Assembly (NCBI GenBank): GCA_023213395.1
Contig: CM041465.1
Span: 149,489,741-149,553,740 of the forward strand
Direction: 5' to 3'
DNA from: Cycas panzhihuaensis
Lineage: Eukaryota; Plantae; Cycadophyta
Length of the DNA stretch: 64,000 bases
The translations under genes and the position numbers were made by a program. The notes under the pieces were generated by a model, which ran no database searches, had not been told where the DNA came from, and saw only the letters and a program-made list of their open reading frames with translations. Of the stretch, positions 27,508-55,842 are shown in pieces; the first letter of the stretch is position 1; every line of letters begins with the position of its first letter.

Positions 27508-27877
27508 CCTCCATTTCTCCTATGCAATCTTTAGTCTTGGAGCCGTTTTTCTTCTTTGGAGAGCTATTTTGAATTATCTCCCCATGATTCTTTCTCCTCT
27601 TGCTATGTTTACAGTTGCTGGGTATCCTTCCTCCCCCTTCTTAAAGAAATCTAGGGCATTTGAAACCCTGCCATGTATGTTTCTTTTCTAAACAATTTTC
27701 CCGTTTTAGTTTTTCAACTAACTTTTGATTGGTTGAAAAACTAACTTGAAACCATTTAATCTAGAGTTCTCTCTTTTTTATTATGTAGAGGACATGTATA
27801 AAATTGTCCTCCTAAAATTTCATATAAAACAGACTCATTTTTCCTTATCAAAATCGCGTTCATTTTTCCATTTTTCG

Positions 27878-28055
27878 GGTTGCACTTGTGGTCGCTTTAG
27901 GTTGTACTAGGTTGTACCAAGTTGCACTTGCAAACTGCTTGGTTGCACTTGCAGTCCACTTGGTTGCACTTGTAGTCTACTTGGTTGCACTTATCGACCA
28001 CTTGGTTACACTTGTAGTCCACTTGGTTACACTTGTAGCCCACTTGGTTACACTT
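27878..28055. repeat. 21 bp minisatellite (ttggttRcacttgtagtccac), ~6-7 copies with 10/11 bp sub-period
   Basis: Direct reading; explains the spurious repetitive ORF 27888-28097. Confidence 0.92.
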
Positions 28056-28186
28056 ACTTTGCATTTTTTAAGCATCTCAATGGTATTTTTCTACTAAATA
28101 AAGGTTACAAACATGAAAAATAAATATAACAAGGCATTTTATACTCATTTTAAAGAGTATTATGAAATTAAAGATCTAAAAATAGA

Positions 28187-28634: not shown

Positions 28635-31000
28635 TATCCCTTTAGTGTTATCTTTTATACGATAGATGATGAAGAAGATAAGAAGTAGATGATGAAGACT
28701 TCAGAATGTCGATTCCTCTTTGATAAAGACTTCATCAATCTTTAATAGTTCTCGTAACTTAACAAACTTAGCTTTAGTCAATGGCTTTGTTAGGATATTA
28801 ATAATTTACAACTCTAAAGGATGATAAGACAGATTAATAGTATTATCATTTACAAGATTACGAATAAAATGATGATGTGACTTTAAGTGTTTAATTCTAG
28901 AATGTGCTACATGATTAATGACTATAGAAATTACACCTTGATTATCAATATTTATTTGAATAGAGGAGTCAAAAAATAAACTAAGTTCATTTAATAAAGC
29001 TTTAATCCAAAGAGATTCTTTGTCGGCTTCTATCAAGGCTCGATATTTGACTTTTATCATAGATAATGCTAATGATTGCATCTTCTTGTTGGACTAAGTG
29101 ATTGGTGAAGAGTTGAGAAAGAAAACATAATTAACTATAGATTTTCAATTATTGGAGTCACTTGCCTAGTCTGAATTTGTATATCTTATTAACTTAAGGT
29201 CAATATTACAGAAGTTATAGTTGAAACCATGATACCTTGAAGGTAACATAAGATTCATTTAGCTATTTTCCAATATGAATCATGGAATTTGTATATGTAC
29301 CTAGAACACAACATAACAATATAGGAGATATATGGGTGAGTGTGGGTTAGGTAAATGAGACTACCTATTAACTAATGATATATCATATAATCACAAGGTA
29401 GAGATTGACAATCAGTTGATAACTTTATACCTAACTATAGAGGAGTTAGGGCTGGCTTTGCATTTTCCATATTAAATCTTTTTATTAGATTAATAATGTA
29501 CTTAAGAAATTAATATTTTTTATTCTAATTAATAGATTTATAGGCCAAGAAAATAATGTAGGAGACCTAAGTCTGCCATTTTAAATTTACTCATTAGAAT
29601 GAATTTTAATTGATGAATATGAGAAAGTAGAGATCTAGTTATTATAATATCATCGACACAAAGAATTAAAATGGTAATTCTATTATTTTGACATTTGAAA
29701 TAAAGATTAGGATTACTAATATATTTAGTGTATCTATTTTAAAAAAGGTAATCATCGATCTTAATATACCAAGCCCTAAAGGCTTATTTAAGACCATATA
29801 GAGATTTTTTAAGTTTACAAACGAGATTAGGATTAGACACAAAACTAGGTGATTAAGATATATATATATATTTTCATTAAGATCACCATTTTAAAAAGTG
29901 GTATTTACATCAATTTAATATATTCGCCAACTAAATTTGGTTACGAGAGAAATAATTATTTTAATTGTATTTATTTTTATGATAAGAGAAAATGTTTTAG
30001 TATAATCAATACTATCAATCTAAGAAAAACCTTTGGCAACCAAATGAGCCTTATATTTTTTTATTATTTCTTCTAAGTTATATTTAGTATGGTAAACCCA
30101 TTTATAGTCTACCAAATTTTTATCTGGAGGTAGTAGAACTAAATCCCAAGTTGAGTTTTTCTAAAGAGAATCATATTAAACTTGCATAACTTATTGCCAT
30201 ATAGGATTATGACAAGCTTCTTTATAAGTTTTATGATCATTATTAGCTATTACTTTATCCATTAACGCAAAGTTAGCTTATAGTTTCTATGACTTGGTTC
30301 TCCTAGTATCTAATAGATCACCAATATCAAAACTAACAGTTAAAAGGGTTTTGTGAGCCTAAACTAGTTATTTATTTCATGAAGAAGAATCATATGTGGA
30401 AGGTTGATTAGAAGGATTAGTTATATCATAATTTATTAAGGTCTAATTCTAAACTTGAGTGAATAAGTTTTTAATTACTTTATTGTTAGCTTATTTGTCT
30501 GAAAGGTTTGTTAAGTAAGTATTAGTTAATAGACTTTCGATAGAAATTTCCATTTGATTTGTGTTTGATGAAGATCCCTCTTCATAAAAAATAACAGCAC
30601 ATAAAATTATGATTTTATGTGTAATGGGATCTAGTAACTTATAAGCTTTGCTTTCTTCATTGTATCTTACGAATATCAATTTAGAACTTTTAAGGTCTAG
30701 TTTATTATATTTTTCTTTAAGAATATGTCCCTAAGAAAGACTTCAAAAAACTTTCAGATGTTTTATGGAAGGTTTATGACTATACAATTTTTGTTCTAGT
30801 GTAATATTTTATAAGGACTTACTTAGTAATCGATTTAACAAATAATTGGAATAGGTAATTACTTCAGCCCATAACTTTAAGTTAAGACCTTTTGCATATA
30901 ACATATATCAGGAAGTATAAGCAATGGAATGTTGAAATTATATTCTTTGGTATTATCAGATCTAAATAATTTAATTTTTTAATTAGATTAGTTTTCAACC

Positions 31001-34443: not shown

Positions 34444-37400
34444 ATGGCACTAATGCCAGGGACAACCACCTGCATTCTGATTCTAATTTTAACCAGCTTA
34501 AACTATGCCGACTAGAGGAATCACATATCCCATCAGCTTAAACAACAAAAGATATGGTGATATGTAACAAGTGAATTTAAAAAACCAAAAGAAACAACTT
34601 CAAAAAGCTATATGGTATATCCGATGAACTCTGATTTAGCTCTAGGCACCATCCTGAACTCACTTTCACCAGAAATTAGTCGATAGTTCTCTGAAACAGA
34701 CGATCTAACCACTGTCTGGAATATTCTTAAGGAGAAATATGATAAGGTTGACACACATCAATTGGCTATCCTATAACAGCAATTGTATGACCTTAATTAT
34801 GATGATTTTTCTAAAGTAAAAAACTTTTTATCTAAAATTTAACTAATCAATAAAAACCTAGGTAACTACATTAAAACCAAAACTAAAGTAGGTGATGATA
34901 AACAAATAGTTACACATGCTAAAGACGATGATATGCTTGTTCGTCTTGCAATAAAAAAACTACTAAAACATTTTAATTTTTTCAAGACCACTAGACAACA
35001 AGCTGGTAATCCTCCTATAACTTTTAATCAGTTGACAAACCAACTGATAGAATATCAAATGATGTTAATTCAACTAGGAATATTGGAAGATCCTTCTTAA
35101 GCTTTATTTTCCAAAACTAAGCCTCAAAATAAAACCAAATATCAGAATAACTTCAATAGTAATCCAAAATTCCAGAAACCTCGTAGAGGTTCACCTCTTA
35201 ACTCTCAAAATAATATTAAGTATTCTGGCCCACCTAAATATTAGAATACTTCCAATTAGTCTTTTCCAAATCGAAACACTATTAATCTTTGTTAGAGCAT
35301 TACTTGTGCCTACTGCCATAAAAAATGCCACACTATTGACATTTACAAATGTAGAATAGCTTCATAAGCATAGAAAGCTTCCAAGGGATTGCAAACTTGA
35401 CTATAATCCCAACCATCAAATCGAACACAATTTTATAATCGTTCTTTAACAATAATAACTTCTGCATTTGTTGCTCCAACTAATCAATCACCTCAATGGA
35501 TCATTAACTCTAGTGCTTCCCATCACATGACAGGACACTAGAAAAATTTATCCACTTATCAATCTGATACTAATTTTGAAGAAGAGATTCCTTTTGGAAT
35601 TGGAACTCAACTCAAAGTAAAAGGATCAGGTGATGTTACTTTAAAATACGGTTCAATCAAGGACATCTTTTACGTTCTTGGTTTGTTACCAAACCTTCTC
35701 TCTATTTATCAAATCTTACAAAAAGACCTTGTTGTTGAATTATGGAAAGATAAATTTATTATTAAAGAACTGTTCAATAAATTCAAACCTATTTCCTCTA
35801 GACATGTTGATCATAATACAGGTCTCTATAGTTTAACTAGTTTACAAAATAATAAAACAATGTCCTTTAGTGCCTGTATAGCCAAGTCTGACCTAGTCAG
35901 TAAATTATGGCATGCACGGTTTGGCTATACTACTTGTGACAAACTTCAGTATCTGAAAAGACATGATATGGTTCATGGTCTTCTTACCCTAAATATTGTT
36001 TATGGTGTCTACAAAGCCTACGTGACAGATAAGCAACAAATGGATCCCTTTCCACATCAATCTCAATTTAGAGTGAAAGTTCCACTTGAACTTGTTCACT
36101 TTGATATATGTGGACCGTTCCATGTATCATCATATTCTGGTTGTCGTTATTTCATCATTTTTATTGATGATTTTTCGAGAAAATGTTGGGTGTACACACT
36201 CAAGACTCGTAATTAAGTATTTGACATCTTCACTGAATTCAAAACACTTGTAGAAAATCAATCAAACTTTAAAATTAAAAATTTTAGATATGATAATGCC
36301 AAAAAATACTTAAGTGAAAAATTCACTTCATTTTGTAAGAAGCATGGAATTTAATTTTAGCATTCTGTTACCTATACTCCTCAGCAAAATGGTATTACTG
36401 AATGCAAGAACCATACTCTTGTTGAGATGACTCGATGTATACTACATACAAAGAGTCTTGGCCTAAAGTTATAGGTAGAAGTAATTGCCTGCTCCAACTA
36501 TCTTTTAAACCGTTTATTTAGTAAATGTTTACAAAATGTTACCCTAAAACAAAAATGATCTAGAAGAAAACCCTCAGTTATTCATCTGAGAATTTTTGGA
36601 AGTATTACGTGGGGACACATTCCTAAAGAAAAATACAAGAAACTATATTCTAAAAGTTAAAATTTATCTTTGTTGGATACAATAAAGAAAGTAAAGCCTA
36701 CAGACTTTTGGATATAGTCACACATCAAATTTTAATTTTGCGTGATGTAATATTTAACGAAGAAGGATATTCTTCAACGTTTACTTATGTAGAACTTCCG
36801 ATTAAGAATCTATTAACCAACACTTATTTGGTTAACCCCTATGAAAAATAAGTTGACATTGAGATTATAAAATCTTTATCTACTCAAGTCCAGAATTGGA
36901 CTCTATCTGAACTAACCAGAATAGATTCTTCTTCTCAAACTAGCTCCTCAGCTCAACCTGTGACTATAGAAACAATCACAAATAAATAACCCGTATCCGA
37001 TACTGGATATGATGTAGGTAATCCTTCAGATATTAGGTGAATACGTGCTCAAAAATTACATGCTAACTATGTATTAATGGCTAAAATAATGGCCAACGAT
37101 AATCTGAAAACCTTTAAAAAAGCTAACAACAATTCTATATAGCAGGAAGCCATACGAGTTGAATTTGATGCTTTAAATAAGAATTCAACTTGGGATCTTG
37201 TTCCTTTTCCACTAGGCAAAAATGTAGTTGATTGTAAATGGGTTTATCGAACCAAATATAATTCAACAGGTGTAGTTGAAAAGTATAAAGCTCGCCTAGT
37301 TGCAAAAGGATTTTCTCAAATCGATGGTATAGATTATAATGAAACCTTTGCACCTGTTGTAAAGATGAATACCATTAAAACTATTATTGCTCTAGTAGCT

Positions 37401-38600
37401 AAATTTAATTGAGAAATACATCAAATGGATGTCAAGAGCACTTTTTTAAATGGTGATCTCAAAGAAAATATCTACATGACTCAACCACCTAGTTTTATTG
37501 ACAATTTTAATTTAGTTTGTAAACTAAAGAAATCAATATATGGATTAAAATAAGCTCATCAAGCTTGGTACACAAAAGTTGATGATTATCTAATTCAAAT
37601 TGGATACACTAGATGTATTAGTGATCCAAACCTCTATTTCAAATGTGAAAACGAGAATCTTACCATTTTAATCTTATATGTCGATGATATTATCATTACA
37701 GGATCTTCAAACCACAACATTTATCACTTAAAAACTACTTTAATGAATAAATTTAAATGACCGATCTAGGTCTTCTACACTATTTTCTTGGATTACAAAT
37801 TTACCAATATAATTCAAAAATAACTATATCCCAACTAAAATATATTTTAGCCCTAATCAAACGGTTTAACATGGAAAATGCTAAACTAGTTTCTGATCCT
37901 TTACAATCAAGAATAAAATTATCTACTGATTGTTCCACACCCTTATGTGATCCAACTTTATATAGGTAGCTTATTGACAACCTTATTTATTTAACTTATA
38001 CTCGACTTGATATATCTTATGCTGTTGCTTTATGTTCACGTTATATGCAAAAACCATATAAATCACACCGGAAAGCTGCTAAACGTATTCTTTAATATGT
38101 TTAAATACTATTTTTTATAGACTAACTTATAATTCTTGCAGTAAACCTCTAACCTTAATAGGGTATACTGATTTAGATTGAGCAGGCGACACAAATAATC
38201 ATAAGTTGATAGTAGGTTATGTATTTTTTCTAGATTCCTCACCGATCACATGGTCTAACAAAAAAATTGTAGGTTTTAGCTCTATTGACAACTGAAGCTG
38301 AATATCATGCACTCGTTGAAGTAGGCAAAGAAGCACTTTGGCTCAAATCTCTCCTAAATGAAATTAGTCTATTTTCTAACTCTTCTATAGAACTTAAAGT
38401 TGATAATCAAGGTACTATTGCTATTGCTACAAATCTAGTTACTCATTCTAGAACTAAACATATAGAATTACATCAGTATTTTATTCGTAATCTTGTTACT
38501 GATAATATTGTTCATTTATCTTATTATCCTACAGATCTACAGGTTGTTGATATTCTTACCAAGTCTTTGACTGACATCAAGTTTCTAAACCTGTAGATTT
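34444..38600 (+). pseudogene. Copia B gag-pol polyprotein, disrupted by stops and frameshifts
   Basis: ATG 34444; zinc knuckle CAYCHKKCH ~35305; protease WIINSSASHHMTG ~35497; GAG-pre-integrase LWHARFG; integrase LVHFDICGP..FIDDFSR; RT YVDDIIITG ~37677; RNase H TTEAEY..HSRTKHI. Confidence 0.95.
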
Positions 38601-38692
38601 GTTAAAGATAAAGGAAGTCTCCATCAAAGGAGGATCAACATGATGAAGACCTTCTTTTTCTATATTGTATAAAAGCTAAAGTTAAAGGGGGA

Positions 38693-39141: not shown

Positions 39142-39334
39142 TGATAAAAAAAAGGAAAGAAACTAGAAAGGATAAAAGAAAACAAAACAACTATGCGAGG
39201 AAGCAAAGTGAAAAGGAGAAAGGTGAAGACTTAACTAGATCGAAATACCTTTACCTTTTCATGAACGTTGCGATGAAACCTGCAAACACAAAGGTTTTCT
39301 TTCCCTTCCTTCAAGGGGCTACTAGAATACCAAG

Positions 39335-39375
<41 letters not shown>

Positions 39376-41191
39376 GTATATATATGTATATATATATATA
39401 TAGAAAATAAAGTGCCAAAAGTTACAAGTAAAATGCTGGAAACAACACAAAATATTTAACAACACAAGTCACAACAAGTAATGAGTGCTAGTAGTTAGCC
39501 TTGGAATGGCTAATTCTCTTATGCAAGTACCTCTACACAGCCTTTGAGTACATGGATAGCAGGTTTAGGCAACCTATATGACATCCGATAGTGAAAGGAA
39601 CAAATGCTATAGAAGCTGGAAATGTTGTAAGTGTTACCAAAGTTACGATATGTAGCACACACAACACCTAGTGAGGGAGTGGCCAAAAGAGGGATATAAC
39701 ACCACTAGGGGGCTGAAATACCCTACCAATATGGGGCTCTCAAAGCTAGAAATAGTGCAGTAAGGGGTTGCATACGCTGATTCTAACAATAGCCTCCTTT
39801 TCGGGGTCGTTTAGTGGCCCAAGGAGGATATAAGGAGGAGAGCAAAGGAGGAGAAGGGGGATTGCCCCTTGGGAAGATGGCCTTGTAGGGTACAGAACCC
39901 GTTGAGTGCTTCCTTCACTCACACCTTAAGTAGCTCACCTCATAGCCCTCTTAAAGAGACTAGAGTGACAGTGAAAAGAAAATATAAATATAAAAGGAAA
40001 AAACTACAGGGAAATACCTCCTGCATAAACTAGAAAGTACTGAAAATAAAAGATATATGGAAGAGATTTTAGCTTTCAAAGGAGTTTTAAGGAAACGACA
40101 TGGAGAAAAACATAAAGAGCTACCTGCTGGACTGAGTTTGTAGTAGGCTTGCCTGAGAGCAGCGTAGGATGAGGCTGATCTGGGTGCTTGTAGGAGAATC
40201 CCTACAAAATCTGAAGGAGAAACCTACTATACGCCTGTGAATACAATCTTTAAATGGTGTCTTCGCTTGATGAGGCTCCTTGATGAGATAAGTTCCATGA
40301 ACTGGAGCTGTGGAAGGTAGAGTCCATGAGATCTCAGTAGATGTAGGGCATTTCCTACAGGAGAAAGCTTGCAGATTAGTAGAAGATCAGGAGAAAGAGA
40401 GTTGTAGGAGATTGTTAGTGAGTGTAAGAAGAGGAAATGAGGAAAATTTTAGGCTTTATACACAACACTAGCCCTAATCGAGCAACTAGGGTTAGGCTGG
40501 GACTCAGGCATTGACTAATCCACATGGCAATTTAGTAAAAAATGTGAAAATTGCCACGACGGATTTAAAAAAATAGAGGTAGACAGTCGCACCATGATAA
40601 ACTTCACGGTATTGCAGCAAACTTCACGATACCATAGAATTTGCTAAGGTGTAGGACTCGAATGTAACAAAAAGGGAAATAAAGGTCTTGAGGGCCCTAA
40701 AAGAGGGTATCTTAGGACTATGAGGGGTTGGCCCTCTTGTCCAGGTAGCTGGGGATAGTCTAAGTAGGCAAATGGGCTAGACCAAATAGGGCATTGAGAG
40801 GTGGGGCTCCCAAGAAACCTATGGCTGGATACAAAACGTCGACCACTCGTAGCAAGATGTTAAGAGTTATAGTAAAGTGACAAAAGTGTAAGTAGGTCAC
40901 ACAAATTAGTTGATGCTCGAGGTGATGTGGAGGTGCAATAGAGGGTTGTAAGGCACTATGGGGGCGCATGCCTCTCGGAGAAGCATGTCTCGCAAGTCGT
41001 CATAGGCTAGGGAGGTGCAACATGATTAAGCAGCAAGATGTATGGCAATCACAAAGATGAGGCACTCAATCATGCAATAAATTAAGTAACGTTTCAATCT
41101 ACCTTTTGAAATGAATGAGAAGGGAGATTGAAATATACTTGTGCTTACATGAGTCGACCTATCCATACCCATTCTCGGTAGCCGCGAAACA
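39142..41191 (-). repeat. 3' LTR of Tat element (probably truncated at its left end); contains expanded (TA)n at 39335-39402
   Basis: ~2 kb colinear with 53850-55842; ends gccgcgaaaCA next to the PPT. Confidence 0.92.
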
Positions 41192-41266
41192 CTACCCCCT
41201 TGGTGGCAGAGCCTCGTTGTTCAGAAGCACAACGTGATGGTGAATGCTGGCAATAAAACTGTTAGT

Positions 41267-41269
<3 letters not shown>

Positions 41270-41314
<45 letters not shown>
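41270..41314. repeat. (TA)n microsatellite
   Basis: Direct reading. Confidence 0.95.
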
Positions 41315-41315
<1 letters not shown>

Positions 41316-41577
41316 CAACATAATCATGATAAGAGCCAAGGGTGCCAGTGAGTGACATGGTAGAACGCAGATATAGGGACAAGAGCAGATGAGGGGAATG
41401 TCCCCATCGTAGGAATACAAGAAGAGAGATGGTGGTAACAAGCAATAGGATGAATGAACAAAAACTTGGTGGTTTCCATAATTTAGCCTCATTAACGGCT
41501 GGCTTTTGGAGGTGCGAATAGATCGCAATGCAAAGAATGACTCAGGACTTGGGTGCAAGCAAGACCGGACAAGTCCC

Positions 41578-42000
41578 TCAAGGTGGGTTGCCAAGGAGAG
41601 GCAGGTGATGCTTAAGGATGAGATGAACGAGGCCGTCTGCCTTACAGTTGAGGGCCCATGGGATATGTTGAAAGTTGATAGACAAAAAATAAGCTAATAG
41701 GGACCTAATGACCAAAACGAGGGCTCTCAAGCATGGGCATTGCACCTGGTAGACTTGGGTGAGATGGGACACTATAACTTGGGAGTCGCAAAAGAGGATG
41801 ATGGGTCTATGGTGGAAACAGAGTGCATCAGTGAGGGCTTCGATAACGACTTTGTACTTAGCTTCATTATTGGTGGCCTTGGGGATGAAGATCCCAGAAT
41901 GTAGGAAATCAAGTCCAGAAGGATCATGAAGAATCCACGCGGTGGTGAAAGGACCAGGGTTGCCGCAACTTCCGCCATCAGTAAAGACGAGAAGTGCCAT
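41578..42000 (-). CDS. Stand-alone archaeal-type RNase H (aRH, RVT_3-like) of the Tat retroelement, 140 aa
   Basis: Open ORF with its own ATG and motifs FTDGGSCGNPG, ATNNEAKY (catalytic E of TNNxAEY read as K), CDSQ, HIPW.LNCKAD. Confidence 0.88.
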   Translation of the reverse strand: MALLVFTDGGSCGNPGPFTTAWILHDPSGLDFLHSGIFIPKATNNEAKYKVVIEALTDALCFHHRPIILFCDSQVIVSHLTQVYQVQCPCLRALVLVIRSLLAYFLSINFQHIPWALNCKADGLVHLILKHHLPLLGNPP

Positions 42001-43128
42001 GGACGAAAAGAAAAGTGTCTCAGTAGATGAAATATGACAAAGTTGGTGGTATCAAGGGGACATGATGATATAGAGTAACTGTGAGAGACTTAAATAGTTG
42101 GCGATGAAGGCCGTGAAGGGCGGGAGAACTCAATAATAAGGCTACCTGAGGGTGGAGTGGACTATCCATCTGACGAGAAAGAACAGATGGCAAAAAGGCT
42201 GTTTTGGGCGGCAAAGGTTACTTAAGGAAGCAAAAAGTAGTCCCAAATGGAGGGGACGCTCCTTTTGGGGGCCCTAGAAGTGTGAATGGGTGGTGAAAAT
42301 GGATCCAGGATGGCAAAATGAGCCAAATGAGTATAAACTTGGGTATACATGGAGGTGGCATGCAAAATGAGGTAAAAGAGGCCTCATGAAGGTAGGCAAA
42401 TAAGTTCCATAAATACACCTATAAAGATAAGCAAAATGGAGGCTGCGGGGGTGAAATAGGAGCTAGAGTTAGAAGGCAATGGTGATCAGGGACGAGGGAT
42501 GGCCCTAAGGGCTGTCACGGTGGTAGAAACAGAGGAAGTACCCGTCGGGACCCCCACCTATATAAGGAAAACTCAATGAAAATGGAATTCATTTTCACGG
42601 GCTCACGAATGATTCAGAGCCCTTTCCCTTACGCAGCAGAGCACTACCCGATTTCAGAGACAGGTAGGAGGAGATCAGATTGTTGGATCGAGGCGAGAGG
42701 ACAGCTAGTGGGATCAGGATGATGAGATGATAGTCGCAAAACTAAATCCAGTGAGTGGATTACTCATTCCCTAGCCCATCTCACACCTTTAAATTTTGTT
42801 ACTTTTTATCAAATTTTAAGGTAGTTTTTGGCCCCTTAAGGGCAAATAGTGATTTCCTGAAGTCTGAATTAGACCCAGTGAGAGGGGGGACTAGGGCATT
42901 AGGTAGCCCTAGTCTTGGTGGGCCAGAGTAAGGCCCGCTAGGGGATTCTTTTTTTATTTTTTTAGATGGGAAATCCCCCCCTTCGGGGGTTGACGTTCCC
43001 ACCGCGACGAAGATTATGGTGCCACAATCTTTGCCACGTGGCCCTGATCGCAGTGGGACCCAAGCTAAACTCCATGTTACTGCGGAATTTAGCGTGGTAC
43101 GAAGTCTAAATAGCTGAAAAAATAAAAG

Positions 43129-45230
43129 ATGACCCAAAGGAGAGCCAAATCTCGATTCAAGAAGAAGGAGAGGCAATCCTAAGGGCTAGTAGGTGGATTT
43201 AGACAAGTTCTAACTGGTTTCTAGGGGATATTGCAGGCAGTTATTGCGGTAGAGAACTACAAAAATATTGGGATGGCGATGTTGACCTTTATGGAGATGA
43301 TATCATGCAGGGACAAATAGGTCTTAGCGTGATGTGGCTTATTAAAGGTCATACAGACACCACAGTACACATTGGATCAATGACTGCTAGTAGATATAGT
43401 CTCACATTGGGACAAGCGGAGGCACATATTCCACCTCCCCCAAGTGGAGGATATCACAGTCACAACGGGAGATATTAGGAGGATACTCGAGGTACTGGCA
43501 ACGAGACGACCAACATTGCTAGGGGCACTGCCTAGCAATGAGGTAACATACATGGAGGTGGCGACATTCTTTATAGGATAGGATAGATAGAAGAGTAGAG
43601 GGATACCTCTATAAACTATGGTCATGTCCTGAGTTCCTCAAGTGAGGAAACTGATTACCCTATGCATTCTGTTCTAGATATCCTAGAAATAGAACTATAA
43701 AGATATATTCGGTGGGTGGATGGATGTGGTCAGGAGATGCGATGTAAGAGAGAGGCTGGATTGGGCCACCTCAATAGCGACAAACTTAGTTGCTCAGTTA
43801 GACGCTATTAGGGTGGTAGGGAGATGTGGACTATCTTACAATATGTTGCTACAATGTTGGTTCTTTAATCACTATAGAGTGGTGGCACCCATAGGAGGAC
43901 CACACCCCATCTTAGAGTGGGCACCCATGGTCCACAGGTGGTAGACTTAGTTTAGGGGGACTGAGGATCAGGCACATGTATGTTACTCAGTGGAGGTTGC
44001 GTTACTAGACCTCCTTACCATGGCTCGATTATATATCCAATCCATATCGAGGGGTGATATGAAGAAGTGATGATGAGGTAGGCATAGCAGGAGTCATCCC
44101 TGGTGATGATGATGACAATGATGGGGATGACAGAGGTGATGGGGCAGGCCCATCTGGAGCAGTAGGCAGAGAGGTAGGACCTTCAGGAGCCGCAGGAGGT
44201 GAGGCAAGTCTATCAAGAGCTGCAAAGAGAGAGGCAGGTCCATCGGGAGCCATAGGAGGAGAGGCAGGTCCATCCAGGGCTATAGAGGGAGTTAGAGGCC
44301 CACAGACACGAGCCTAGAGACTGAGGATAGTGGGGAGATCCAGGGTGGTAACAACACCAGCAGAGAGTAGTGGAGATGTCCCAATAGCCTAGGCAGTCAC
44401 TGAGGTGGTACCAGAGGAGGAGGAGGTACCAATAGTTGGTGGAGCACCTGAGGAGGAGGGCATCATCAGAGTCGAGGAGCCGGCAACCCCAGAAGGTGAG
44501 ACGCTACCTTTTCCTATAATCTTTTGATCGCCTGATATTTAGTTATATTGATTTTGTTTGATATATATGGATATATGTATTGGCACATGGCTTATTGGAC
44601 TTCGCAGGAGTAGTAGAGATACAGAGACTGGTAGAGGTGGTAGTCTGGGAGATTTTCCCTTAGGCCTACATGGAGGGGCAACCTCCCATCTAGGTGGGAG
44701 AGGAACCACGATCGATAGGGGCTCATACAATAGCATTCGCCCAGTTAGTTAGGGCAAGGGATGTATGGATAACAGAGTTCCAGGAGCATGAGGCACGCGT
44801 GGGACAACTTTAGGGGGCGATGGATGAGACTCAGGTTGAGAGGGATGCTCTATGAGGTCAGGTGCAGGTTTTGGAGGCTTAGGGAGGAGTAGGTGGAGAC
44901 GTCGAGAGCTGCATCAGGATGGCAGTACTAGAGGAGCATCTCAGAGGGATGGAGAAGAGGTTCTAGAGTATGGATGAGAGACTCTGGGGGGTGGAGAGTG
45001 AGAGGGATCATATCCAGGTGCGATACGATCAACTAGTAGATCAGGTGGCCTTGAGATTGTCACAAAGTAGGACACATACTCACATAGTGACGATGACCCC
45101 GAGGTGGCCTCAAGACAACGGGAGTGAGGTAGGGAGCTCCTAGAGGCACAAGAGGAGCATGTGAGGCATGTGGTCCCTAGGAGAGGGATCACATTGCCCA
45201 GGAGATGATACCCCAAGGGCAGGGTAGTAG
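43129..45230 (+). pseudogene. Antisense plant mobile domain (PMD, aminotransferase-like) ORF with acidic, repetitive C-terminal tail; disrupted
   Basis: WDKRRHIFHLPQVEDITVTTGDIRRIL from 43408 (cf. PMD ERW..ETHTFHLP.GEMTITLEDV..IL) and DWATSIATNLVAQL...LLQCWFFNH...P.VHRW at 43720-43944 (cf. SWGSAVLA.LYR.L...LLQ.W.WE..RW); followed by D/E/G-rich sequence. Ends are approximate. Confidence 0.78.
44141..44290 (+). repeat. Five 30 bp units encoding EAGPSGAxGG-type repeats
   Basis: GAGPSGAVGR/EVGPSGAAGG/EASLSRAAKR/EAGPSGAIGG/EAGPSRAIEG in one frame. Confidence 0.88.
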
Positions 45231-46009
45231 TAGAGTAGAGTGGAGTAGGTTTGATTTAATAGGGGAAAGTGTTGGACCTCCAGGGAGTCATCATATATTG
45301 CCACATGATTATACTCCTCCCTGTAAGGATTTTGGCTTCCCCTAGATGATGTACCATACCACTTGTATGATATAACACATGCTGCTTATTTTATGTATAT
45401 AGATGAGGGCATTGGCATCCCATTTGATATATGTTTATGTGTATGATGACACATAATAGATGACGTATATTTATGTTTTCATGTTCATGTATACATATGT
45501 ATGAGGGTACACGGGTGCACGAAGGGGAATATGCTATGGTGTTTTTTAATTGATTATTGTATGGCTTGTGATAGAAGATTGTTTGAGTTACACATATTTC
45601 CTTTTATGTAGAGCCATATCCCTAGTAGGCATATACACAATCACCATGAGCAGTAGTGATAGACATATGCATAGCTAGGAGATAGGGTGGCACACATGTC
45701 CACATGGGAGCATAGCAGGATATGCAAAGGAAATGCCAATGGGAAGGGAGCAATGACACTCTAACGCATCGTCCTAGTTGGGGAATGTACTCAAACCTGC
45801 GAGCACTAGGGACAATGCACTCAAATAGGAGGATAGGGCCCCAAGAGGAAGGGGGACAAGGGGTTTTGCCGGAGGAACCCAAAAGGAGCAAGAAGGCCAC
45901 CCTAAGCCCCCATCCCACCTGTGACTAGGGGGAATGGAGATGCGCCTAGGATGGTAGTTTAAGCTCATTTTAGAGCATAAAAAGAAAAAAGGAATAGTCA
46001 TGCATATAA

Positions 46010-49000
46010 TTTCTTAAGGAATTTCCCATTCACAGCCTTATCAAATTCTAGGCCCTATAGGATGGCGATCTTGTAAGCACCATTCCCAAGACTCTTGAGG
46101 ATGACAAAAGGGCCAACCCATTTGGGTCTGAATTTGGTAGGCAATCGTGGAGATATTCCAGCTTGAGGACATGGTCCCTGGGATGTAAAGGATAGGAACA
46201 AAGGTTTTTATCGTAAGTCCTTCATGCCCTAGCCTTAGAGGTGAGGTTGGCTTGGTAGGTGGCCAAGTGTTTCTCATCCAAGGCCTCAAGGTCTAAGAGG
46301 CGAGCTTGACAGATAGACTCCTCATCGACCAGACCTCTGAGAGAGACCCGTATGGAAAGAATCTCCACTTCTAGTGGGAGAACCGCCTCTGTTCCATAGA
46401 CTAGAGAGAAATGAGTCATTCCTGTAGCTGTACGGATAGACATACGATATGCCTATAGGGCGAAAGGGAGTTAGAGGTGCCAATCTATTTGAGATTGGGC
46501 AACGATTTTCTTTAGGATGTTTATGAGAGTTTTATTAATCGATTCAACCTGGTCGTTGGCCTGGGGGTAGTAAGGAGAAAAAGTTTTATGAGAAATGTGG
46601 AATTTCTTACAAAGCTCATCCATATCCTTGTTACAAAAAAGAGTTCCATTGTCCATGATCAGGACATCGGGAACCCTGAAGCAGCAGATGATATGCTGGT
46701 AGACAAAAGTGGCTATTATCTTACCATGAGTCATGGTCAAAGGAATGGCCTCTGCCCATTTGGTAAAGTACTCTGTAGCAATCAAGATAAACTTATGCTG
46801 CAACGAAGATGACGGGGTTATGGCTCCAATGTGGTCCAACCCCCATTGGGAGAAGGGCCATAGAGATATAATAGGATGGAGAGCCTCGCAAGGCAAGTGA
46901 GTGATGTTGCTATGCTCTTGGCATTGCCAACATCTCAAGGCATAAGCATGGGCGTCCTTAAAGAGGGATGACCAATAATATCCCATACGAAGGATCCTTT
47001 GGGCCATGGATTGGCCCTTGGAAATGCTATGGTGGCATTCATGGAGTATCTAGTCCGCTTCGTCAAGGGAGATGTAGTGGAGAAGGATCCCATCAAATGA
47101 TCTCTTGTATAATACCTCACCCATAAGAAAGTACTGTCTGGAAGTTGCCCAGATATGAGACCTAACTTTATTGCTAGCATTAGGGCGATACTGTTGTTGA
47201 GTGAGATATTGCACGATGTCTCCATACCACTCACTATCAGCAAGCAGATAAGGAAGGAGGTCTTGAATGACCAAGATAGGCTCATTAGGAAGAAATTCAT
47301 CAACAGGAAGGTCCAAAGGGTTCAGAATATGAGTGTCAGTGAATTGCTTGACCACTACCATTCCCTTCTTTGATTTCCTGTTAACAATGTGAAGATCAAA
47401 TTCCTGAAGGAGGACAACCCACTTGCCACCCCACCACAAAGTTAGGTCTGTAAGAAAATAGCCTTAGGGATTAGATTGAATAATCACCCGAGTAGTATTC
47501 CCAAGTAAGTAATGCCTGAACTTCTTCATTGCATGTACCAAGGAGAGGCATTCTTTCTCCGTAGGGGAGTAGTTAAGCTCGGTAGCCATGAGGGTATGAT
47601 TGATGAAGTAAATAGCCTTCTCGGCTCTCGAATCATCCTCTTGGGCCAACATGGCACCCAGAGATTCATTAATTACTGAGGTATTCAGGATGAAAGGCAT
47701 ATCAAAGAGAGGCAGCGTCAATGTTAGGGCAGAAGCGAGAGCTTCCTTAAGTTCTTCGAAGGCTTGTTGGGCCTTTGAAGACCAAACAAATAGTACCCCC
47801 TTCTTTAATAGGTTAGTGAGCGGTTTGGCATTTATGGCAAAGTTCACTAAAAATACCTGAGGAAACCAAGCCTACCTAAAAATGACTTAATCTGTCATTG
47901 GGTTTTAGGAGGTGGCATGTTAAGGATGGCATTGAATTTATCAAGGTTGATTTGGATTCCTTGCTTTGATACAAGGAAACGAAGGAGTTTGTCAGTGGTC
48001 ATGACAAATACATATTTGAGAGGGATAAGGCTTACATGGTATTTATGACATCGTGTAAAGATGGCCTGCAAATCAGGAGGGTCATTGGCTCTAACATATG
48101 AGAGACCCATCATATCATCCATGAAGACCTCCAAGGATTTGTTGATGAGATCATAAAAAATGAATTACATCACCCTTTGATAAGTGGCGCCTACATTCTT
48201 GAGTCTGAAAGGCATCACCTTATAGGTGGAAGTACTCCATGGAGTGGTGAAGGCAGTCTTGTGATGGTCTTTAGGAGAGATTTGAATTTGGTTATAGCCA
48301 AAGAAGCTGTCAATTAAGGACATAACTTCGAAACTGATGGTTTGATCAATGATCTGGTCAATAAAAGGAAGTGGGAAATTGTCCTTAGGACATGTGTTGT
48401 TGATGTCATGGAAGTCAATGCATATCCAGATTGTCCCATTCCTTTTAGCAACAGGGACAATATTAGATACCCATTTAGGATAGTCAATGGAAGTGATCAA
48501 TCCTGCGTTAAGGAGTTTCTCAACTTTTATTTTAACAGCATCTGAGAGCTTAAGATGAATGGGACGTTGCTTCTGACGTATAGGGTGAGTGCCAAGAATG
48601 GTAATAAGGTTGTGGGTCATGATTAAAGGATCAATTCCCTTCATATCAGAGTAATCCCACACAAAAACATCCTAAATCTCCTAGAACAGAAGGGTATACT
48701 CCTTCATTTCATCATGATAGTATTTCACCCCTACCTTAATGACTTTGTTAGGGGGTAAGGACTATGTCCTAGGTTGCCCCCATGCACATGGTATTCCCCT
48801 CCTCAAAGTGGAGGGGGGCTCGTTTAATAGGAAGGGATGGAATAAGGGATGGAGTTAGGTTAGCAAGAGAATATCTAATAGCCAAGACCTTCTGATAACC
48901 AATCAGAAGGAAGATTGGGTGTGGAGCCCATTAAGTGCTTAAGTAGGGCTTCGTCGTTCTCAAAGTAGTCCACCCCATGGATGACCACACTTTGAGAAGA

Positions 49001-52000
49001 CGAAGGGTGAAGGGAAGTAGAGACGGCGGGATCATGGTGGTTGCCACACCACTCGGTGTTCCCGATGGACTCCCTGGAAGAGTTAGAAAGAGGTCCCTCA
49101 TAAGGGATAGTAGGAGGTTCCCCAACCTCGTTACCTAGGTGTGGTAATGAAGGGGAAGACTCAAGGAGCACCTAATCAATAGGGGCAATGGCATGAGATA
49201 TAAGAGGAGAACTAGTTTCTCCAACTGTAGGAGTTCCAAAGCAGGATCTAGAATGAAGGAGGTATCCCCTACTTATGCCTAAAAGGGAAATGGGGTGAGG
49301 AAAGTCCTCATCCTCGCTATTAGACTCAACGTCACTAAGGATGGTAAGGTACTTGTAACTTCTGACACCAATAGGAATGAACCATGTGAGGTTGGAAGAA
49401 GAGGATGAAGGATCTTCTTCCAAATGAGATGAGTCAGGGATGTCAATAGAATAAGCAAAGGCATGAGTAGAAAGGCCTTTATCACCTTTCATTTAGCCAT
49501 GAGATGCTTGACGGGGTTGACGTGGTTGTTTAATAGGAGGGAGCTCCTGAGATATGACTCTCATTCGCCCTTCGTGGATGAATTTAAGTTGCCCCCAGTA
49601 GGACGAGCATACGACTCCCATATGATCAAGCCATGGGGATCCCAACAATAGATTGTAGTCGACGTCAATGTCAAGGACTATAATATCAGCAAAGACAATC
49701 TTGTCCTGGAGAGTAAGCAGGATAGACACCGATCCTAAGGGAGTCTTTTTGCTACCATCATAGCCTTGGCACTGCCATGGAACTGGTTCTAAAGCTGATA
49801 TACAAAGCTCTTGCATAACATACAAGGGTATGGCATTAATGGAAGAACCATTATCAACAATGATTCTTCGTAAAGTGTAATCCAGAGTATCTATGGTAAT
49901 AGTGAAAGGGAAGTTCCATTGGTGCTCCCTTTCATTAGTAGAGGGAAGATCCTTAGGATCAAAGGAAATGACTGGTTCACAACTCGAGGTGACTCCCAAG
50001 GCATGAACGAGCATGTCACCTAATCCTAAGGCCTCTAAGAGTAATGTGCGTTGTTCAGGGTAACTCCTCAGGACGTCTATTATGGACATTCCAGTAGCCA
50101 TGGTATGGAGCTCATCAACGACTGAGAAAGGTTTCCCCTTCACAGTGGGTTGGGGAAGGGCCCTTCGAAAGTCGTAATGACCGGGGTACACAAGAATGGT
50201 CTTAGGGAGTGTGGGGGCTTCCAAAAGAGAAGTTTCCAGAAGAGGATTAGGATGAGATGCAAATGAAGAGGCACCATTCACCTCTTTGATTGCTTGAGAC
50301 CAGGTTAAGGCATATAGTGGGGTGGTCTCAAGTAATTGAATAACCTTCTTTCCCTTATTCTGGGATCGTGAAGGTGATGGGGTGTGTTGGTTAGGAGAAC
50401 CTAAGGAAAAAGATGAATTCCTTGCACTCTTCCCTTTGACTAGAGAAGAGCAAGGGTTAGGAGACCTCTCTCGATTTCAGTTATTCTTCTATTAGGGGTT
50501 GCGATCACGTTCCCCATGTTTAGGGAAGGGATCTTTATGAACAGGTTGATCTAGGTTGGGTCTACATGCCCATTTTAGGGAAGAGTCATGTTGTGGGGTA
50601 GGCTTAGGATGCTGTGCCCAACACCACGAATCGTCATGGAAGCACTCCCCATGGATGGAGCACCACTTCTTCTCAAGGGAGGAGTCAGGTTTCCTCGCTT
50701 AAGAGGACTGGGTATTACCAACCTTAGTAGGAGTAGCTTGTGAAGCCTGATGAATTAGCTTGTTAGACATAGGAGATGAAGGAGCTTGAAGCTTGAGTTC
50801 CTTCATAATACGTTTAAATAAACGTATAGCTGAAGTAAGAGGGTCTAGAGTCTTCTCGATAGAATGGGAAGAAGACCTAAAGGGTTGTTAAGATTTACTA
50901 TCTTTTGATGGTGGTGGCACCTCACGTCACTGTGAGGACTTTAGAGGCTTCTTGAGTCTAGCCTAGATCTCAATGGCCTCGAGTGCCAAACAATTCACTA
51001 TAGTGGAGTTGCACATAGTCGCCTCCATCTTGAGGACTTTTATGTGAACTTCTAGATAAAGGGCATTGACGAAAAGGTCCCTCTTCAACTCCTCGAGTAA
51101 AGTAGGCTTAGTGGAGTGTAGAAGGTCATGGAAACGCTGCATAAAGTCACGATTCATTTCATCGTGGCCTTGTTTAAGTGACAAGAGGGATTTTATTATA
51201 CTCTCAAATGGGTGAGCCATGTCAAAATAGTTGACGAACTCATCCATGAGCTGCTGGAATGAGAAGATAGAATGCACAAGTAGGCGATAAAACCATTTAA
51301 AGGCATTGCCTTGAAAAGACCATGGAAATAGTTTCATCAGGATGTGGTCGCAAGACCAGTAATCAATGCATGCCATAAAGAAGCTATGAGCATGCTCCAT
51401 CGGGTCTTGCGATGAAGTCCCATCAAATTTGGGGACCTCAGGGGGTGGGACAGTAAGTTAGTCCTTAGTGCCTCAATAGATAATAAGGTTGACCGATAGT
51501 CCATAAAGAGTCATACCCTTGACTAGACCAGAGGGTCAATAGATACTGGAAATGATGGTGGGTAGGTTTGTCCAAACCCCCCTTAGAGGGTTTGGTTTGA
51601 AAGAGGATGTTGTCCTCTTACTGCTTGGTGAGGAGGCACGAATCCCACATTCGAGGAAACCTGCATGGAAGTGGATAGGTATGACGTACCCATCCCTCCT
51701 AGAGAGAGTGCTCCTTGTTGGTAAGGAGCATGAGGGAAAGTTCCATGGGAAGGAGTTGGGTCTCCTTGCAAAGGCATGATGTATGGTTCCACACAAGATG
51801 GCGGACAAGAGGGGTGAGGAACTAGATTCTACCCATTATGGGCCACCTATGGGTGGCACGACACCATAGGGATGCAGAGGGTCCACCCCATAAGCAGGTA
51901 AGGAATTCCCTTTACCACGCCCCCACGGTTGAGTAGTGTAACCAGAAAATAGGTAAAGAGAAGGGTCCTTAGGTTGGTGTTGGGACTATGTAGTGACGGA

Positions 52001-52450
52001 CCCCACGTGACTAGAAGCAAGGGGGCATGTAATTCCCCTAGGTCTAGTAAGTGGATAAACAATGGTAGGAGGAGGACTAGTGATTTGACTAGCTAGGGGC
52101 ATGATCAACCCAAATTGGGAAGATGATATGCCCTGAGTGGTCCCCAAGGTGTATATGCCATGGGGAGAAGAAGAAGATGTAAAAGGTAAGCTCATCGTGG
52201 GTAAAGTAGTTGAACGAGATGAGCGAGGTAAAGGGGATGTAGAAGAGGATGGCACAACGCTTCGTAAGACCTCCTCAAACCACCTTAGGCATGGTTGGAG
52301 GCATGCATCTTGGAAGCATTGGCTCAAAGCTTCTACTACATCAGTGGGAGAGGTATCTGCTTGATCGTATGAGGTGGAAGGGGCCTCATACGAAGTGGGT
52401 CCCACAGGGCGATCCTCATAAGAATCGTCATGGGAATGGTGAAACTCCAA
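46010..52450 (-). pseudogene. Tat element gag-pol, disrupted
   Basis: gag (50963-51400, LFPWSFQGNAFKWF), protease IIVDNGSSINAI (49493-50281), RT (48165-48662 CIDFHDIN..FPLP; 47895-48134 VFMDD), RNase H (47464-47847), integrase (46471-47007 WGLDHIG..EYFTKW; 46222-46443), GPF motif ~46110. Confidence 0.95.
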
Positions 52451-52884
52451 AGGAGATGTAGGTTCTACTTCATGAGTAGAAGATTGATGAGATTAGGGGT
52501 GCATTTGGTCAACTGAATAATAAATGGGGTCTTCGCTTCCTTAGGCAGACCCTTGGAAGGAAGTAGATGGCTCTAAGGAATCAGACACGTAGGCATGGTA
52601 TGCCCAGTCCAAAAGAGATCCTTCCATGATCAGATCAGGATCTGATGCAGGAAGGGAATGATATGAAGGCTCTTCTGACAATGGGGGTAAGCCTCATAAG
52701 CAACATGAGAATCATTGCATGCAAGTCCTACCTATGTATTGGAAGAAGAGGGAAACAAGGTTATGTACGTGTTGGGGGCTACCCAACAAAATCAAGAAGG
52801 AAAGTTACCAAGAGGTAGCAGAACCAATAAGAAAGAGAGGAAGACTACTTCCTTTACTGGTGGGTCCCTAGTATGGTCGCTAGT

Positions 52885-55842
52885 AGAATCGCATCTATGG
52901 GGATGGTAATTGCACTTGGTGAAGATTGGGGCAATCAACGATAAATATCGAAATAAAAGAATGCAATCCTACAAGTGGAAGAAAACAACCATACATGGTG
53001 TCCGTACATCAGAACGCAAGTTCGGGACCCACGAATGGCACATAGCTTCCTCAAGGTAGCTTAGGCTTTTGGCTTGAAGGGTAAGATACACGTGGGGTAT
53101 CTTGGATGACCCCAAATGATGGAATCCTCCCACCCTTGGATGGCCGGAAGGGAAGAGGGAGGCCCAATGAAGAAAGAACTACTACGAGGATGCGATATGA
53201 TATGGGTGGAATAACAAGAACTCCTTAGGTCGACTCACCTAAGGCAGGTCTACGAGTAAAAGAAGTGATGGCGAAAGACCACTTGCTGCTACGTGAGTGA
53301 AGGGATCTAAATCCCGGCAAAGGCAACGTGGGTAGAGTGTGTGAATAGGAATGTGAAGAAGGTATATGAAAGGATAATTTAAGTGTTCTCGTTTATTTTC
53401 ATAAAAGAGGAACTTTAAACACTCTCTCACTCTCTTTTTATTTTAAAACAAGAAAAGGACAGAAGAAGTATTCCAAATACACTCAAGCATGTATGTTAGG
53501 AAATGCAAAGCTAAGGGACGTTTTGCATTTGGGTAGGAGAGGAGGGAGGTATAATTCCTATGATATGCTCCTTCCTATAAAGGCAACATGCAACATGCAT
53601 ATGCAAGATGAATGTATGCAAGTTAGTTGATTACTCTTTTCCTTTTATTTTGTTTATTATGCACGATGATGGATCTAATAATAACAAAGGGAAAGAGCTA
53701 TCAAAGGAGGGAAAATATGTACCCAGAAAGTTACGTGGTTGAAGAAGATGTCTTGCTCGTATGTTGTGCTTCGCTCCCTTGTGCTTGTCTGATGCACTAA
53801 TGTTGTCGAAAGGTGGTATTGGAGGGGGCTTCCTTACCTTCCTCGTGTAAAAGAAAAGAAAGGAAAGAAACTAGAAAGGACAAAAGAAAACAAAACAACT
53901 ATACGAGGAAGCGAAGTGAAAAGGAGAAAGGTGAAGACTTACCCAGATCGAAGTACCTTTCCCTTTTCACGAACATTATGATGAAACCTACAAACATAAA
54001 GTTTTTCTTCCCCTTCCTTCAAGGGGCTACTAGAATACCAAGTATATATATATATGAAATAAAGTGCCAAAATTTACAAGAAAAATGTTGGAAACAACAT
54101 AAAATATTTAACAACATAAGTCGCAACAAGCAATGAGTGTTAGTAGTTAGCCTCGGAATGGCTAACTGTCTTATGAAAGTACCTCCACATAGCCTTTGAG
54201 TACCTAGATAGCAGGTTTAGGTAGCCTATATGACATTCGATAGTGAAAGGAACAAATACTATAGAAGCTGGAAATGTTGTAAGTGTTACCAAAGTTATAG
54301 TATGTATCACACACAACACCTAGTGAGGGAGTAGCCAAAATAGGGATATAACGCCACTAGGAGGCTAAAATACCCTACTGATATAGGGCTCTCAAGGTTG
54401 GAAATAGTGCAGTAAAGGGTTTCATACATTGATTCTAGTAATAGCCTCCTTTCCGGGGTCGTCCGGTGGCCTAAGGAGGACACAAGGAGGAGAGCAAAGG
54501 AGGAGAAGGGGGATTGCCCCTTGGGAAGCTGGCCTTGTAGGGTATAGAACTCACCAAGGGCTTCCTTCACTCACACCTTGAGTAGCTCACCTCACAACCC
54601 TCTTGGAGAGACCAGAGTGATAACAAGAAGAAAATACAAATATGAAAGGAAAAAACTGCAGGGAAATACCTCCTGCATAAACTAAAAAGTACTGAAAATA
54701 AAAGAGGTATGGAAGAGATTTTAGCTTTCAAAGGAGTTTTAAGGAAATGACATGGAGAAAAACACAAAGAGCTACCTGCTGGCCTGAGTTTGTAGCAGCC
54801 TTGCCTAAGAGCAGCGTAGGATTGGGCTGATCTAGGTGCTTGCAGGAGAATCCCTACAAAATCTGAAGGAGAAACCTGCTATATGCCTGTGAATGCAAGC
54901 TTTGAATAGTGTCTTCACTTGATGAGGCTCCTTGATGAGATAAATTCCATGAACTGAAGCTGTGGAAGGTAGAGTCCAGGAGATCTCAGTAGATGCAGGG
55001 TATTTCCTGTAGGAGGAAGCTTGCAGAGGTGGCAGAAGACCAAGAGAAAGAGAGTTATAGGAGATCGTTAGAGAGTGTAAGAAGGGGAAATGAGGAAATT
55101 TTTAGGCTTTATATACAACCCTATCCCTAATCGAGTAATTAGGGTTATGTTGGGACTTGGTAGCGACTAATCCACGTGGCAATTTCATGAAAATTATGAA
55201 AATTGCCATGGTGGATTTTAAAAAATAGAGGTAGACAGTCGCACCATGGTAAGCTTCATAGTATCGCAACAAACTTCATGGTGCTGCAAAATTTTCCGCA
55301 GTGTGGGACTAAAATGCATCAAAAAGGGAAATAAAGGTCTTGAGGTCCCTAGAAGAGGTATCTTAGGCCTAGGAGGGGTTGGCCCTACTGTCCAGGTGGC
55401 TAGGGACAGTCCAAGTAGGTAAATGGGCTAGACCAAGTAGGGCATTGAGAGGTGGAGCTCCTAAGAAACCTATGGCCAAACACAAAATGTCGACCACTTA
55501 TAGCGAGATGCTAAGAGTTGCGGTAAAGTGATAAAAGTGTGAGAGGATCACACAAATAGATCAATGCTCGAGGCAATGTGGAGGTGCAACAGAGGGTTGT
55601 AAGGCACCATAGGGGCACATGCCTCTCGGAGAAGCATGTCCCGTAGGTTGTCATAGGCTAGGGATGTGTAGCATGATTAAGCAGCAAGATGCATGGCAAT
55701 CACAAAGATGAGGCACTCAATCATGCAATAAATCAAGCAACGTTTCAATCTACCTCCTGAAATGACTAAGAAGGGAGATGGAAATATACCTGTGCTTACC
55801 TGAGTTGACCTGCCCATACCCATTCCCAGTAGCTGGGAAATA
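52885..55842 (-). repeat. 5' LTR of Tat element (~3 kb if it extends to the PBS; homology to the other LTR covers ~53850-55842)
   Basis: Match to 39142-41191; no PBS at 53846, but a PBS-like site at ~52864-52882. Confidence 0.75.

What the first reader, a model, noticed from the sequence alone, without database searches (positions are those of the whole stretch)
41578..45230. Head-to-head accessory cassette in a Tat retroelement: free-standing archaeal-type RNase H plus antisense PMD gene around a central promoter-like spacer
Seen: ~4 kb downstream of integrase, an aRH ORF (42000->41578, element sense, own ATG, no stops) and a PMD-containing ORF (~43129->45230, antisense) point away from each other across a ~1.1 kb CpG-retaining spacer. 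The spacer has cTATATAAgg at ~42558, readable on both strands, and a cAG|GTAGG donor at ~42664. No aRH lies between RH and INT or between PROT and RT. Known: aRH placed after INT defines the gymnosperm TatIII lineage in the REXdb scheme. PMD domains occur in some Gypsy and MULE elements and in host MAIN/MAIL1 proteins involved in TE silencing. Inference: aRH cannot be part of the polyprotein here, so it would need a subgenomic or spliced RNA. Together with the PMD it may form a separately expressed two-gene module (RNA:DNA hybrid processing plus a chromatin or anti-silencing factor) driven by an internal bidirectional promoter. This particular copy is probably dead (aRH catalytic E>K; PMD stops).
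Basis: partly seen in the sequence, partly recalled or inferred. Interest (0 to 1): 0.8.

Follow-up and report, generated by a model that had tools for sequence, protein, structure and literature searches.

The report
Reshuffled accessory genes in Tat retrotransposon
A decayed copy of an abundant plant retrotransposon carries two already known extra genes, a stand-alone RNase H and an antisense plant-mobile-domain gene, back to back instead of end to end as in related elements; the promoter-like signals between them likely drive only the second gene.

Summary
The anatomy is real: a 16.7 kb Tat LTR element (- strand) with order gag-PROT-RT-RH-INT, antisense PMD gene, 1.2 kb spacer, free-standing archaeal-type RNase H (aRH), PPT, 3' LTR. 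Both genes are published TatIII / structure #3 traits. The order is the new part. Two related families fetched here (L001/L002, L003/L004) read INT-aRH then antisense PMD, tail to tail. Diverged sister copies of the window's family tile the aRH-spacer-PMD junctions. The TATA and donor recur, with a matching acceptor, upstream of PMD in L001, where no aRH lies opposite; they are therefore likely the PMD promoter and 5'UTR intron. PMD is far more decayed than pol (24 of 63 versus 9 of 80 stop-prone codons), which argues against a co-selected pair. In both related families a splice acceptor directly precedes the aRH ATG, so aRH is likely made from a spliced RNA. A bidirectional promoter remains possible (about 30%) but untested. 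New variant of a known kind.

The parts
39146..41191 (-). 3' LTR (begins TG at 41191; its far end is truncated at about 39146)
   Evidence: blastn 87.6% over 1800 nt plus 92% over 202 nt to the other LTR; ends read; K2P 0.138 over 1786 sites
41192..41201 (-). Polypurine tract next to the 3' LTR
   Evidence: sequence
41578..42000 (-). Free-standing archaeal-type RNase H ORF, 140 aa; Lys at the catalytic Glu position, Trp at the conserved Arg position
42001..42556 (.). Spacer on the aRH side; four AAAATG repeats, TATA-like hexamers on the - strand at 42415 and 42096, 17 acceptor-like AG sites in 42000-42600, none directly before the ATG
   Evidence: role not shown
42557..42567 (+). TATA box, predicted core promoter of the PMD gene
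   Evidence: counterpart in L001; many sister contigs begin to match at 42527 (table 7)
42664..43236 (+).
   Evidence: same TATA-donor-acceptor-ATG layout in L001 (131/465/18 nt against 105/573/36 nt); the L001 acceptor 10-mer occurs once in the window, here
43237..44495 (+). Predicted exon 2: PMD domain from ATG 43273, frameshift near 43950-43990, then Gly/Ala/Glu-rich low-complexity region; 16 stops in the two blocks counted
44496..44607 (+). Predicted intron 2 (112 nt, GC 0.34 against 0.53-0.54 in flanks, phase-compatible)
44608..45227 (+). Predicted exon 3, coiled-coil-like heptads, 8 stops
   Evidence: simple heptad count only, no dedicated predictor
45998..47865 (-). Native RH (first catalytic Asp position degenerate) and integrase; stop at 46000-45998
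47850..48761 (-). Reverse transcriptase
49547..50233 (-). Protease region
   Evidence: tblastn to L002 pol E 6e-16
51107..51334 (-). Gag capsid domain
   Evidence: Pfam Retrotrans_gag E 1.6e-6
53854..55842 (-). 5' LTR, aligned part; inner end not fixed (candidates near 53800 or near 52880)

Best explanation
This is a dead copy of an abundant TatIII-type (post-integrase aRH) LTR retrotransposon whose two accessory genes sit back to back but are likely expressed independently: PMD likely from its own TATA promoter with a 5'UTR intron, and aRH likely from a spliced element-sense RNA. Shown: domain order, single aRH, degenerate native RH, family-level junctions, the different order in two related families, and acceptors before their aRH ATGs. 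Inferred: the separately made aRH supplies the RNase H activity that the degenerate native RH lacks, in trans inside the particle. Inferred: the PMD-coiled-coil protein is a nuclear, trans-acting accessory factor (anti-silencing is a hypothesis from the literature). Inferred: the head-to-head order arose by moving the aRH unit from one side of the PMD gene to the other; the direction is unknown.
For: Tail-to-tail order INT-aRH-PMD in 2 of 2 independent related families. There the INT stop is followed by a 93 or 120 nt T-rich gap ending in CAG directly before the aRH ATG. TATA-donor-acceptor-ATG layout is shared with L001, where no aRH lies opposite; the acceptor 10-mer has 1 match in 64 kb, 0.05 expected, 33 nt before the in-frame ATG. 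AAAATG repeats also lie upstream of the L001 TATA. Native RH is degenerate in the window and in L002, as published for all aRH-bearing Tat. aRH is 43% identical to L001 aRH, against RT 49% and RH-INT 38%, while the spacers share no blastn match better than E 0.17. 3 of the 3 closest homologues (51-62%) have Met at the same place. PMD stops 24 of 63 stop-prone codons against pol 9 of 80, Fisher p 2.5e-4. Grande gene23 is a precedent for an antisense ORF on its own internal promoter.
Against: No acceptor directly precedes the aRH ATG in the window, and acceptor-like sites are common on this pyrimidine-rich strand (17 in 600 nt), so the splice route is carried over from relatives. The branch-like motif before the 42443 candidate differs in most family contigs at 42469. 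No transcript was shown. Only 2 related families were seen, of unknown host, and only L001 extends to the PMD promoter. The PMD stop excess could partly reflect heavier methylation of a GC-rich gene, and aRH has too few stop-prone codons (0 of 7) to say it outlived PMD.
Confidence: 0.55

Rival explanations
1. Bidirectional internal promoter: when aRH moved behind the PMD promoter it came under that promoter's reverse activity (or a second core at 42415 or 42096), giving a divergent two-gene unit independent of the LTR.
For: Head-to-head junctions are tiled by diverged sister copies (table 8). The family lacks the adjacent acceptor seen in relatives. The spacer and aRH hold the highest CpG o/e windows of the element. 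TATA-like hexamers and donor-like sites exist on the - strand. Contigs of run X24 (RNA is a guess) cover aRH, the TATA core and the PMD gene end.
Against: The promoter features are explained by PMD alone. Related families do without the arrangement. Six upstream ATGs lie between the reverse-read TATA and the aRH ATG. PMD decayed well ahead of pol.
Confidence: 0.3
2. aRH is a weakly expressed passenger in this family; RNase H activity comes in trans from other Tat elements or the host.
For: Two active-site positions are altered here; the three closest homologues are short fragments; rare copies lack the whole cassette (joint 41494-45955, 1 contig in each of 2 of 4 runs).
Against: aRH protein is conserved like pol across families; a 530-member cluster of stand-alone aRH exists, 13 of the 15 listed members 145 aa long; P0006 is a complete stand-alone relative with the acidic and Arg residues in place.
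Confidence: 0.12
3. The PMD segment is a separate nested insertion that split INT from aRH in this copy only.
For: In relatives aRH follows INT directly, and a pyrimidine tract with TAG follows the INT stop here too. No listed contig bridges the PMD 3' end to INT.
Against: No terminal repeats flank the segment (best 12 nt, E 0.14). Copies about 80-85% alike tile aRH-spacer-PMD. No INT-to-aRH joint is among the best-supported joints shown (15 of 765, 15 of 251). The same antisense PMD gene is part of related elements.
Confidence: 0.03

Closest known systems
TatIII (REXdb, Neumann 2019, PMC6317226) = lineage III (Ustyantsev 2015, PMC4408406)
   Same: aRH after INT; antisense PMD ORF in the 3' region; size 16.7 kb within 12.7-17.3 kb
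   Different: The 2015 text puts aRH at the C-terminus of Pol and the PMD ORF at the 3' end; here PMD lies between INT and aRH, and it has a coiled-coil-like tail that the text assigns to lineages IV and V
Tat structure #3, clusters H (Pinaceae) and I (Cycas, Ginkgo) (Biryukov and Ustyantsev 2023, PMC10508981; PMC13468544)
   Same: [quoted passage not shown]
   Different: Those texts do not mention PMD, promoters or splicing in the passages and tables seen; they leave open how the separate ORF works
Related elements L001/L002 and L003/L004 (fetched here)
   Same: Same two accessory genes and orientations; same PMD promoter and 5'UTR intron layout in L001
   Different: aRH lies 93-120 nt after the INT stop behind an adjacent acceptor, tail to tail with PMD
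Maize Grande gene23 and Ogre/Retand antisense ORFs (PMC7264820, PMC11963269)
   Same: Antisense accessory ORF between pol and 3' LTR, transcribed from its own internal promoter (Grande)
   Different: No free-standing aRH behind the promoter; Retand ORFs carry TRP28, not PMD
Arabidopsis MAIN/MAIL1/MAIL2 PMD-C proteins (PMC5418596; bioRxiv 10.1101/2024.09.27.615353)
   Same: PMD domain
   Different: Host genes of clade PMD-C; gypsy-encoded PMDs form clades A1/A2; clade of this PMD not tested; anti-silencing by TE PMDs is only proposed

Membership tests
Ty3/gypsy Tat clade | LTRs, order GAG-PROT-RT-RH-INT, PPT | tested here: met
Ty3/gypsy Tat clade | Additional archaeal-type RNase H plus degenerate native RH | tested here: met
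   the canonical native-RH motif is recalled, the degeneracy matches L002
TatIII / structure #3 | aRH downstream of INT and nowhere else | tested here: met
   (1 hit)
TatIII / structure #3 | Length 12.7-17.3 kb | tested here: met
   at least 16.7 kb (39146-55842); range
TatIII / structure #3 | Antisense PMD ORF in the 3' region | tested here: met
   feature (Pfam score below cut-off, as for the intact L001 PMD)
TatIII / structure #3 | 5 bp target-site duplication | tested here: inconclusive
   the 3' LTR end is truncated; no flanking match could be assigned
TatIII / structure #3 | PBS for tRNA-Arg or tRNA-His | tested here: inconclusive
   a decayed site near 52880 resembles an Arg-type PBS from recall only; no tRNA in the window to test against
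TatIII / structure #3 | RT/INT phylogeny in Tat H or Tat I; gymnosperm host | not testable with these tools
   reference sequences could not be read; RT 49% to L002; host not named
Bidirectional two-gene module | Divergent transcripts from one spacer | not testable with these tools
   only contigs available, no stranded RNA
Bidirectional two-gene module | Arrangement kept across related families | tested here: not met
   0 of 2 related families are head to head

The most novel reading that the evidence does not exclude
In this lineage the essential RNase H gene left the pol splice route and was captured by the reverse side of the PMD promoter, making an LTR-independent divergent cassette that supplies RNase H and a chromatin factor in trans to the whole family.
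Probability: 0.25. Interest if true: 0.7.

Novelty: new variant of a known kind. Interest (0 to 1): 0.4.

Why it matters
The 2023 survey of Tat elements says that aRH outside pol raises the question of how it can work from a separate ORF, and a 2026 paper calls its status controversial. The comparison here gives testable answers: a splice acceptor directly before the aRH ATG in two related families, a mapped candidate promoter and intron structure for the PMD gene, and a lineage in which aRH has moved 4 kb away, which rules out any Pol fusion without splicing. It also shows that 'structure #3' covers at least two gene orders. It does not reveal a new kind of system.

Tried and rejected
No whole genome is held for the window, so full-length sister copies could not be read. 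Homologue searches: aRH near-length gave 2 distant RNases H of 22 candidates; PMD against longer proteins gave 0 of 968 (weak); the exon-3 search and one RT scan were run in a wrong frame and mean nothing. Four scans of viral contigs found no relative. No RNA holder was listed. Run X24 (RNA is a guess) has little or no cover at the INT end where DNA runs are deep, and a 2138-nt contig whose end matches 45076-45235; this fits a PMD-sized transcript but strand, start and splicing cannot be told, two low-depth X24 contigs contain predicted intron 1 sequence, and the tool warns against ranking parts by depth, so none of it is counted. Depth differences along the spacer in DNA runs (TATA bin deep, predicted introns shallow) are likewise only a hint. 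AAAATG enrichment is not significant once all 6-mers are allowed (P 0.14 and 0.36). No solved structure resembles the L001 PMD (best E 0.29); the DUF1985 hit in the Atlas (0.89) is a lead only. No structure was predicted (no deep alignment). Three look-ups of earlier findings returned nothing. The window's own PMD has no Atlas result.

Full report
Observation. The finding lies in an LTR retrotransposon on the - strand. Its LTRs (39146-41191 and 53854-55842) are 87.6% alike over 1800 nt (K2P 0.138); the 3' LTR is truncated at its far end. Pfam and tblastn place gag, protease, RT, RH and integrase between 51334 and 45998. The aRH ORF (42000->41578, 140 aa, no stop) matches RVT_3 at E 1.2e-11 and archaeal-type RNases HI in the PDB at E about 1e-15, against 7e-4 for the E. 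coli type. A profile built without the window sequence finds it once in the element. It starts 3997 nt and 75 ATGs after the INT stop. Two active-site positions are altered (Lys at residue 48, Trp at 115). PMD lies on the + strand (Pfam E 5.9e-5, below the cut-off, as for the intact L001 PMD; pairwise E 5e-12). The lack of stops in aRH is unremarkable (P about 0.32), and the spacer's CpG excess is modest (0.53 against 0.38).

Family status. Laying public contigs on the element gave about 190,000-230,000 contigs per DNA run, with all 30 of 30 bins covered in 4 of 4 runs. Differences are mostly transitions that leave this copy with A or T, as expected from methylation decay. In the finer lay, listed pieces about 80-85% alike, hence other copies, tile 41913-43372 without a gap: aRH start, spacer, TATA, donor, acceptor and PMD start. 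Some overlaps are only 20-30 nt, pieces come from different copies, none spans the whole, and no listed piece bridges the PMD 3' end to INT. No INT-to-aRH joint is among the best-supported joints shown (15 of 765 and 15 of 251). One rare joint removes the whole cassette (1 contig in each of 2 of 4 runs). No terminal repeats flank the PMD segment. The head-to-head order is thus very likely a family trait.

Relatives. A search of 1.84 billion representatives gave three close fragments (51-62%) with Met at the same position and a 530-member cluster of stand-alone aRH. Scanning metagenome contigs with that cluster's representative gave 4 loci of 109 candidate stretches, which reduce to 2 independent families. 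Their host is not shown; I assume Pinaceae from the published distribution. Both families read INT stop, a 93 or 120 nt T-rich gap ending in CAG directly before the aRH ATG, aRH, then an antisense PMD gene. They are tail to tail, unlike the window. aRH is 43% identical between window and L001, similar to RT (49%) and RH-INT (38%), PMD 26-29%, and the non-coding spacers do not align.

The spacer. Upstream of the L001 PMD lie a TATA box, a donor 131 nt on, a 465 nt intron and an acceptor 18 nt before the ATG. The window shows the same layout: TATA 42559, donor 42664 (105 nt on), 573 nt intron, acceptor at 43236, in-frame ATG at 43273. The ten bases across the L001 acceptor occur once in the 64 kb window, at this place (0.05 expected, 5 of 100 shuffles reach 1; chosen after seeing the match). 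A second, phase-compatible GT-AG intron (44496-44607, GC 0.34) precedes a coiled-coil-like exon. These are predictions from sequence; no transcript was seen. On the aRH side nothing decisive appears: 17 acceptor-like sites in 600 nt, TATA-like hexamers at 42415 and 42096, six upstream ATGs below the reverse-read TATA, and no acceptor directly before the ATG.

Mechanism. The native RH is degenerate in the window and in L002, as reported for all aRH-bearing Tat, so reverse transcription likely needs aRH supplied in trans. The acceptors in relatives suggest a spliced element-sense RNA (0.55). Reverse firing of the PMD promoter or a second core remains possible (0.30). Against a co-selected pair, the PMD gene carries 24 stops among 63 stop-prone codons against 9 of 80 in pol (p 2.5e-4; gag and aRH blocks left out of the test). 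This suggests that PMD was lost in this sub-lineage before the copy inserted, though heavier methylation could contribute. PMD function is open: host PMD-C proteins oppose Polycomb silencing and resemble the VANC DUF1985 domain, and an anti-silencing role for TE PMDs is proposed, not shown.

What is in print. PMC4408406 (main text parts 1-4 of 6, supplement legends and a term search; Fig. 2B not visible): gymnosperm lineage III has an antisense 3' PMD ORF and aRH at the Pol C-terminus. PMC6317226 (passages, Additional file 5): TatIII has aRH after INT. PMC10508981 (whole main text, supplement parts 1 and 3 of 3; Fig. 2 not visible): aRH in a separate ORF in conifers, Cycas and Ginkgo; its text says 'upstream of pol' but its table gives INT.aRH. 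PMC13468544 (passages; supplement unreadable): 'solo aRH', controversial status, 0 occurrences of PMD, antisense or promoter. PMC7264820 (parts 1-2 of 3), PMC11963269, PMC5418596 and bioRxiv 10.1101/2024.09.27.615353 (passages; its supplements are closed) cover antisense ORFs and PMD. Steinbauerova 2011 and Gomez-Orte 2013 were not seen. Ten literature searches turned up no description of the head-to-head order, of the acceptor before the aRH ATG, or of the PMD promoter in these elements; unseen figures, REXdb Additional files 1 and 3 and subscription papers may hold it.

Verdict. Real feature, known parts, apparently undescribed order. The module-with-bidirectional-promoter idea is weakened but not excluded. 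New variant of a known kind; interest 0.4.

Noticed in passing
L001 1228-1320, L002 5889-5981, L003 3539-3658: In both related families a T-rich gap after the INT stop ends in CAG directly before the aRH ATG, an intron-like acceptor that suggests how the 'separate ORF' is expressed; the donor is unknown.
   Followed up: partly
L002 3-5888, L001 1321-3438: A young family with an unbroken pol frame of at least 1961 aa, intact aRH and intact two-exon PMD gene; useful as a natural reference.
   Followed up: partly
window 45940-45997: A pyrimidine tract ending in TAG follows the INT stop on the - strand, where relatives have the aRH acceptor; no aRH remnant was detected behind it.
   Followed up: partly
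window 41494-45955: Rare family copies join these two places, lacking both accessory genes (1 contig each in runs X1 and X3).
   Followed up: no
window 22187-23215: Intact host gene of the Phi_1/EXORDIUM family (Pfam E 4.7e-113).
   Followed up: no
window 28699-30909 and 36434-38648: Two 2.2 kb repeats in inverted orientation, 68% alike; a copia-type fragment (gag_pre-integrase, rve) lies at 35542-36216.
   Followed up: no
window 672-1177 and 4496-5404: Other gypsy-type integrase and RT-RH remnants.
   Followed up: no
window 27900-28067 and 27383-27510: Tandem arrays with 21 nt and 38 nt periods.
   Followed up: no
window 52850-53854: About 1 kb inside the aligned 5' LTR end has no counterpart at the 3' LTR; two candidate LTR ends and PBS-like sites (near 53800 and 52880) remain unresolved.
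   Followed up: partly
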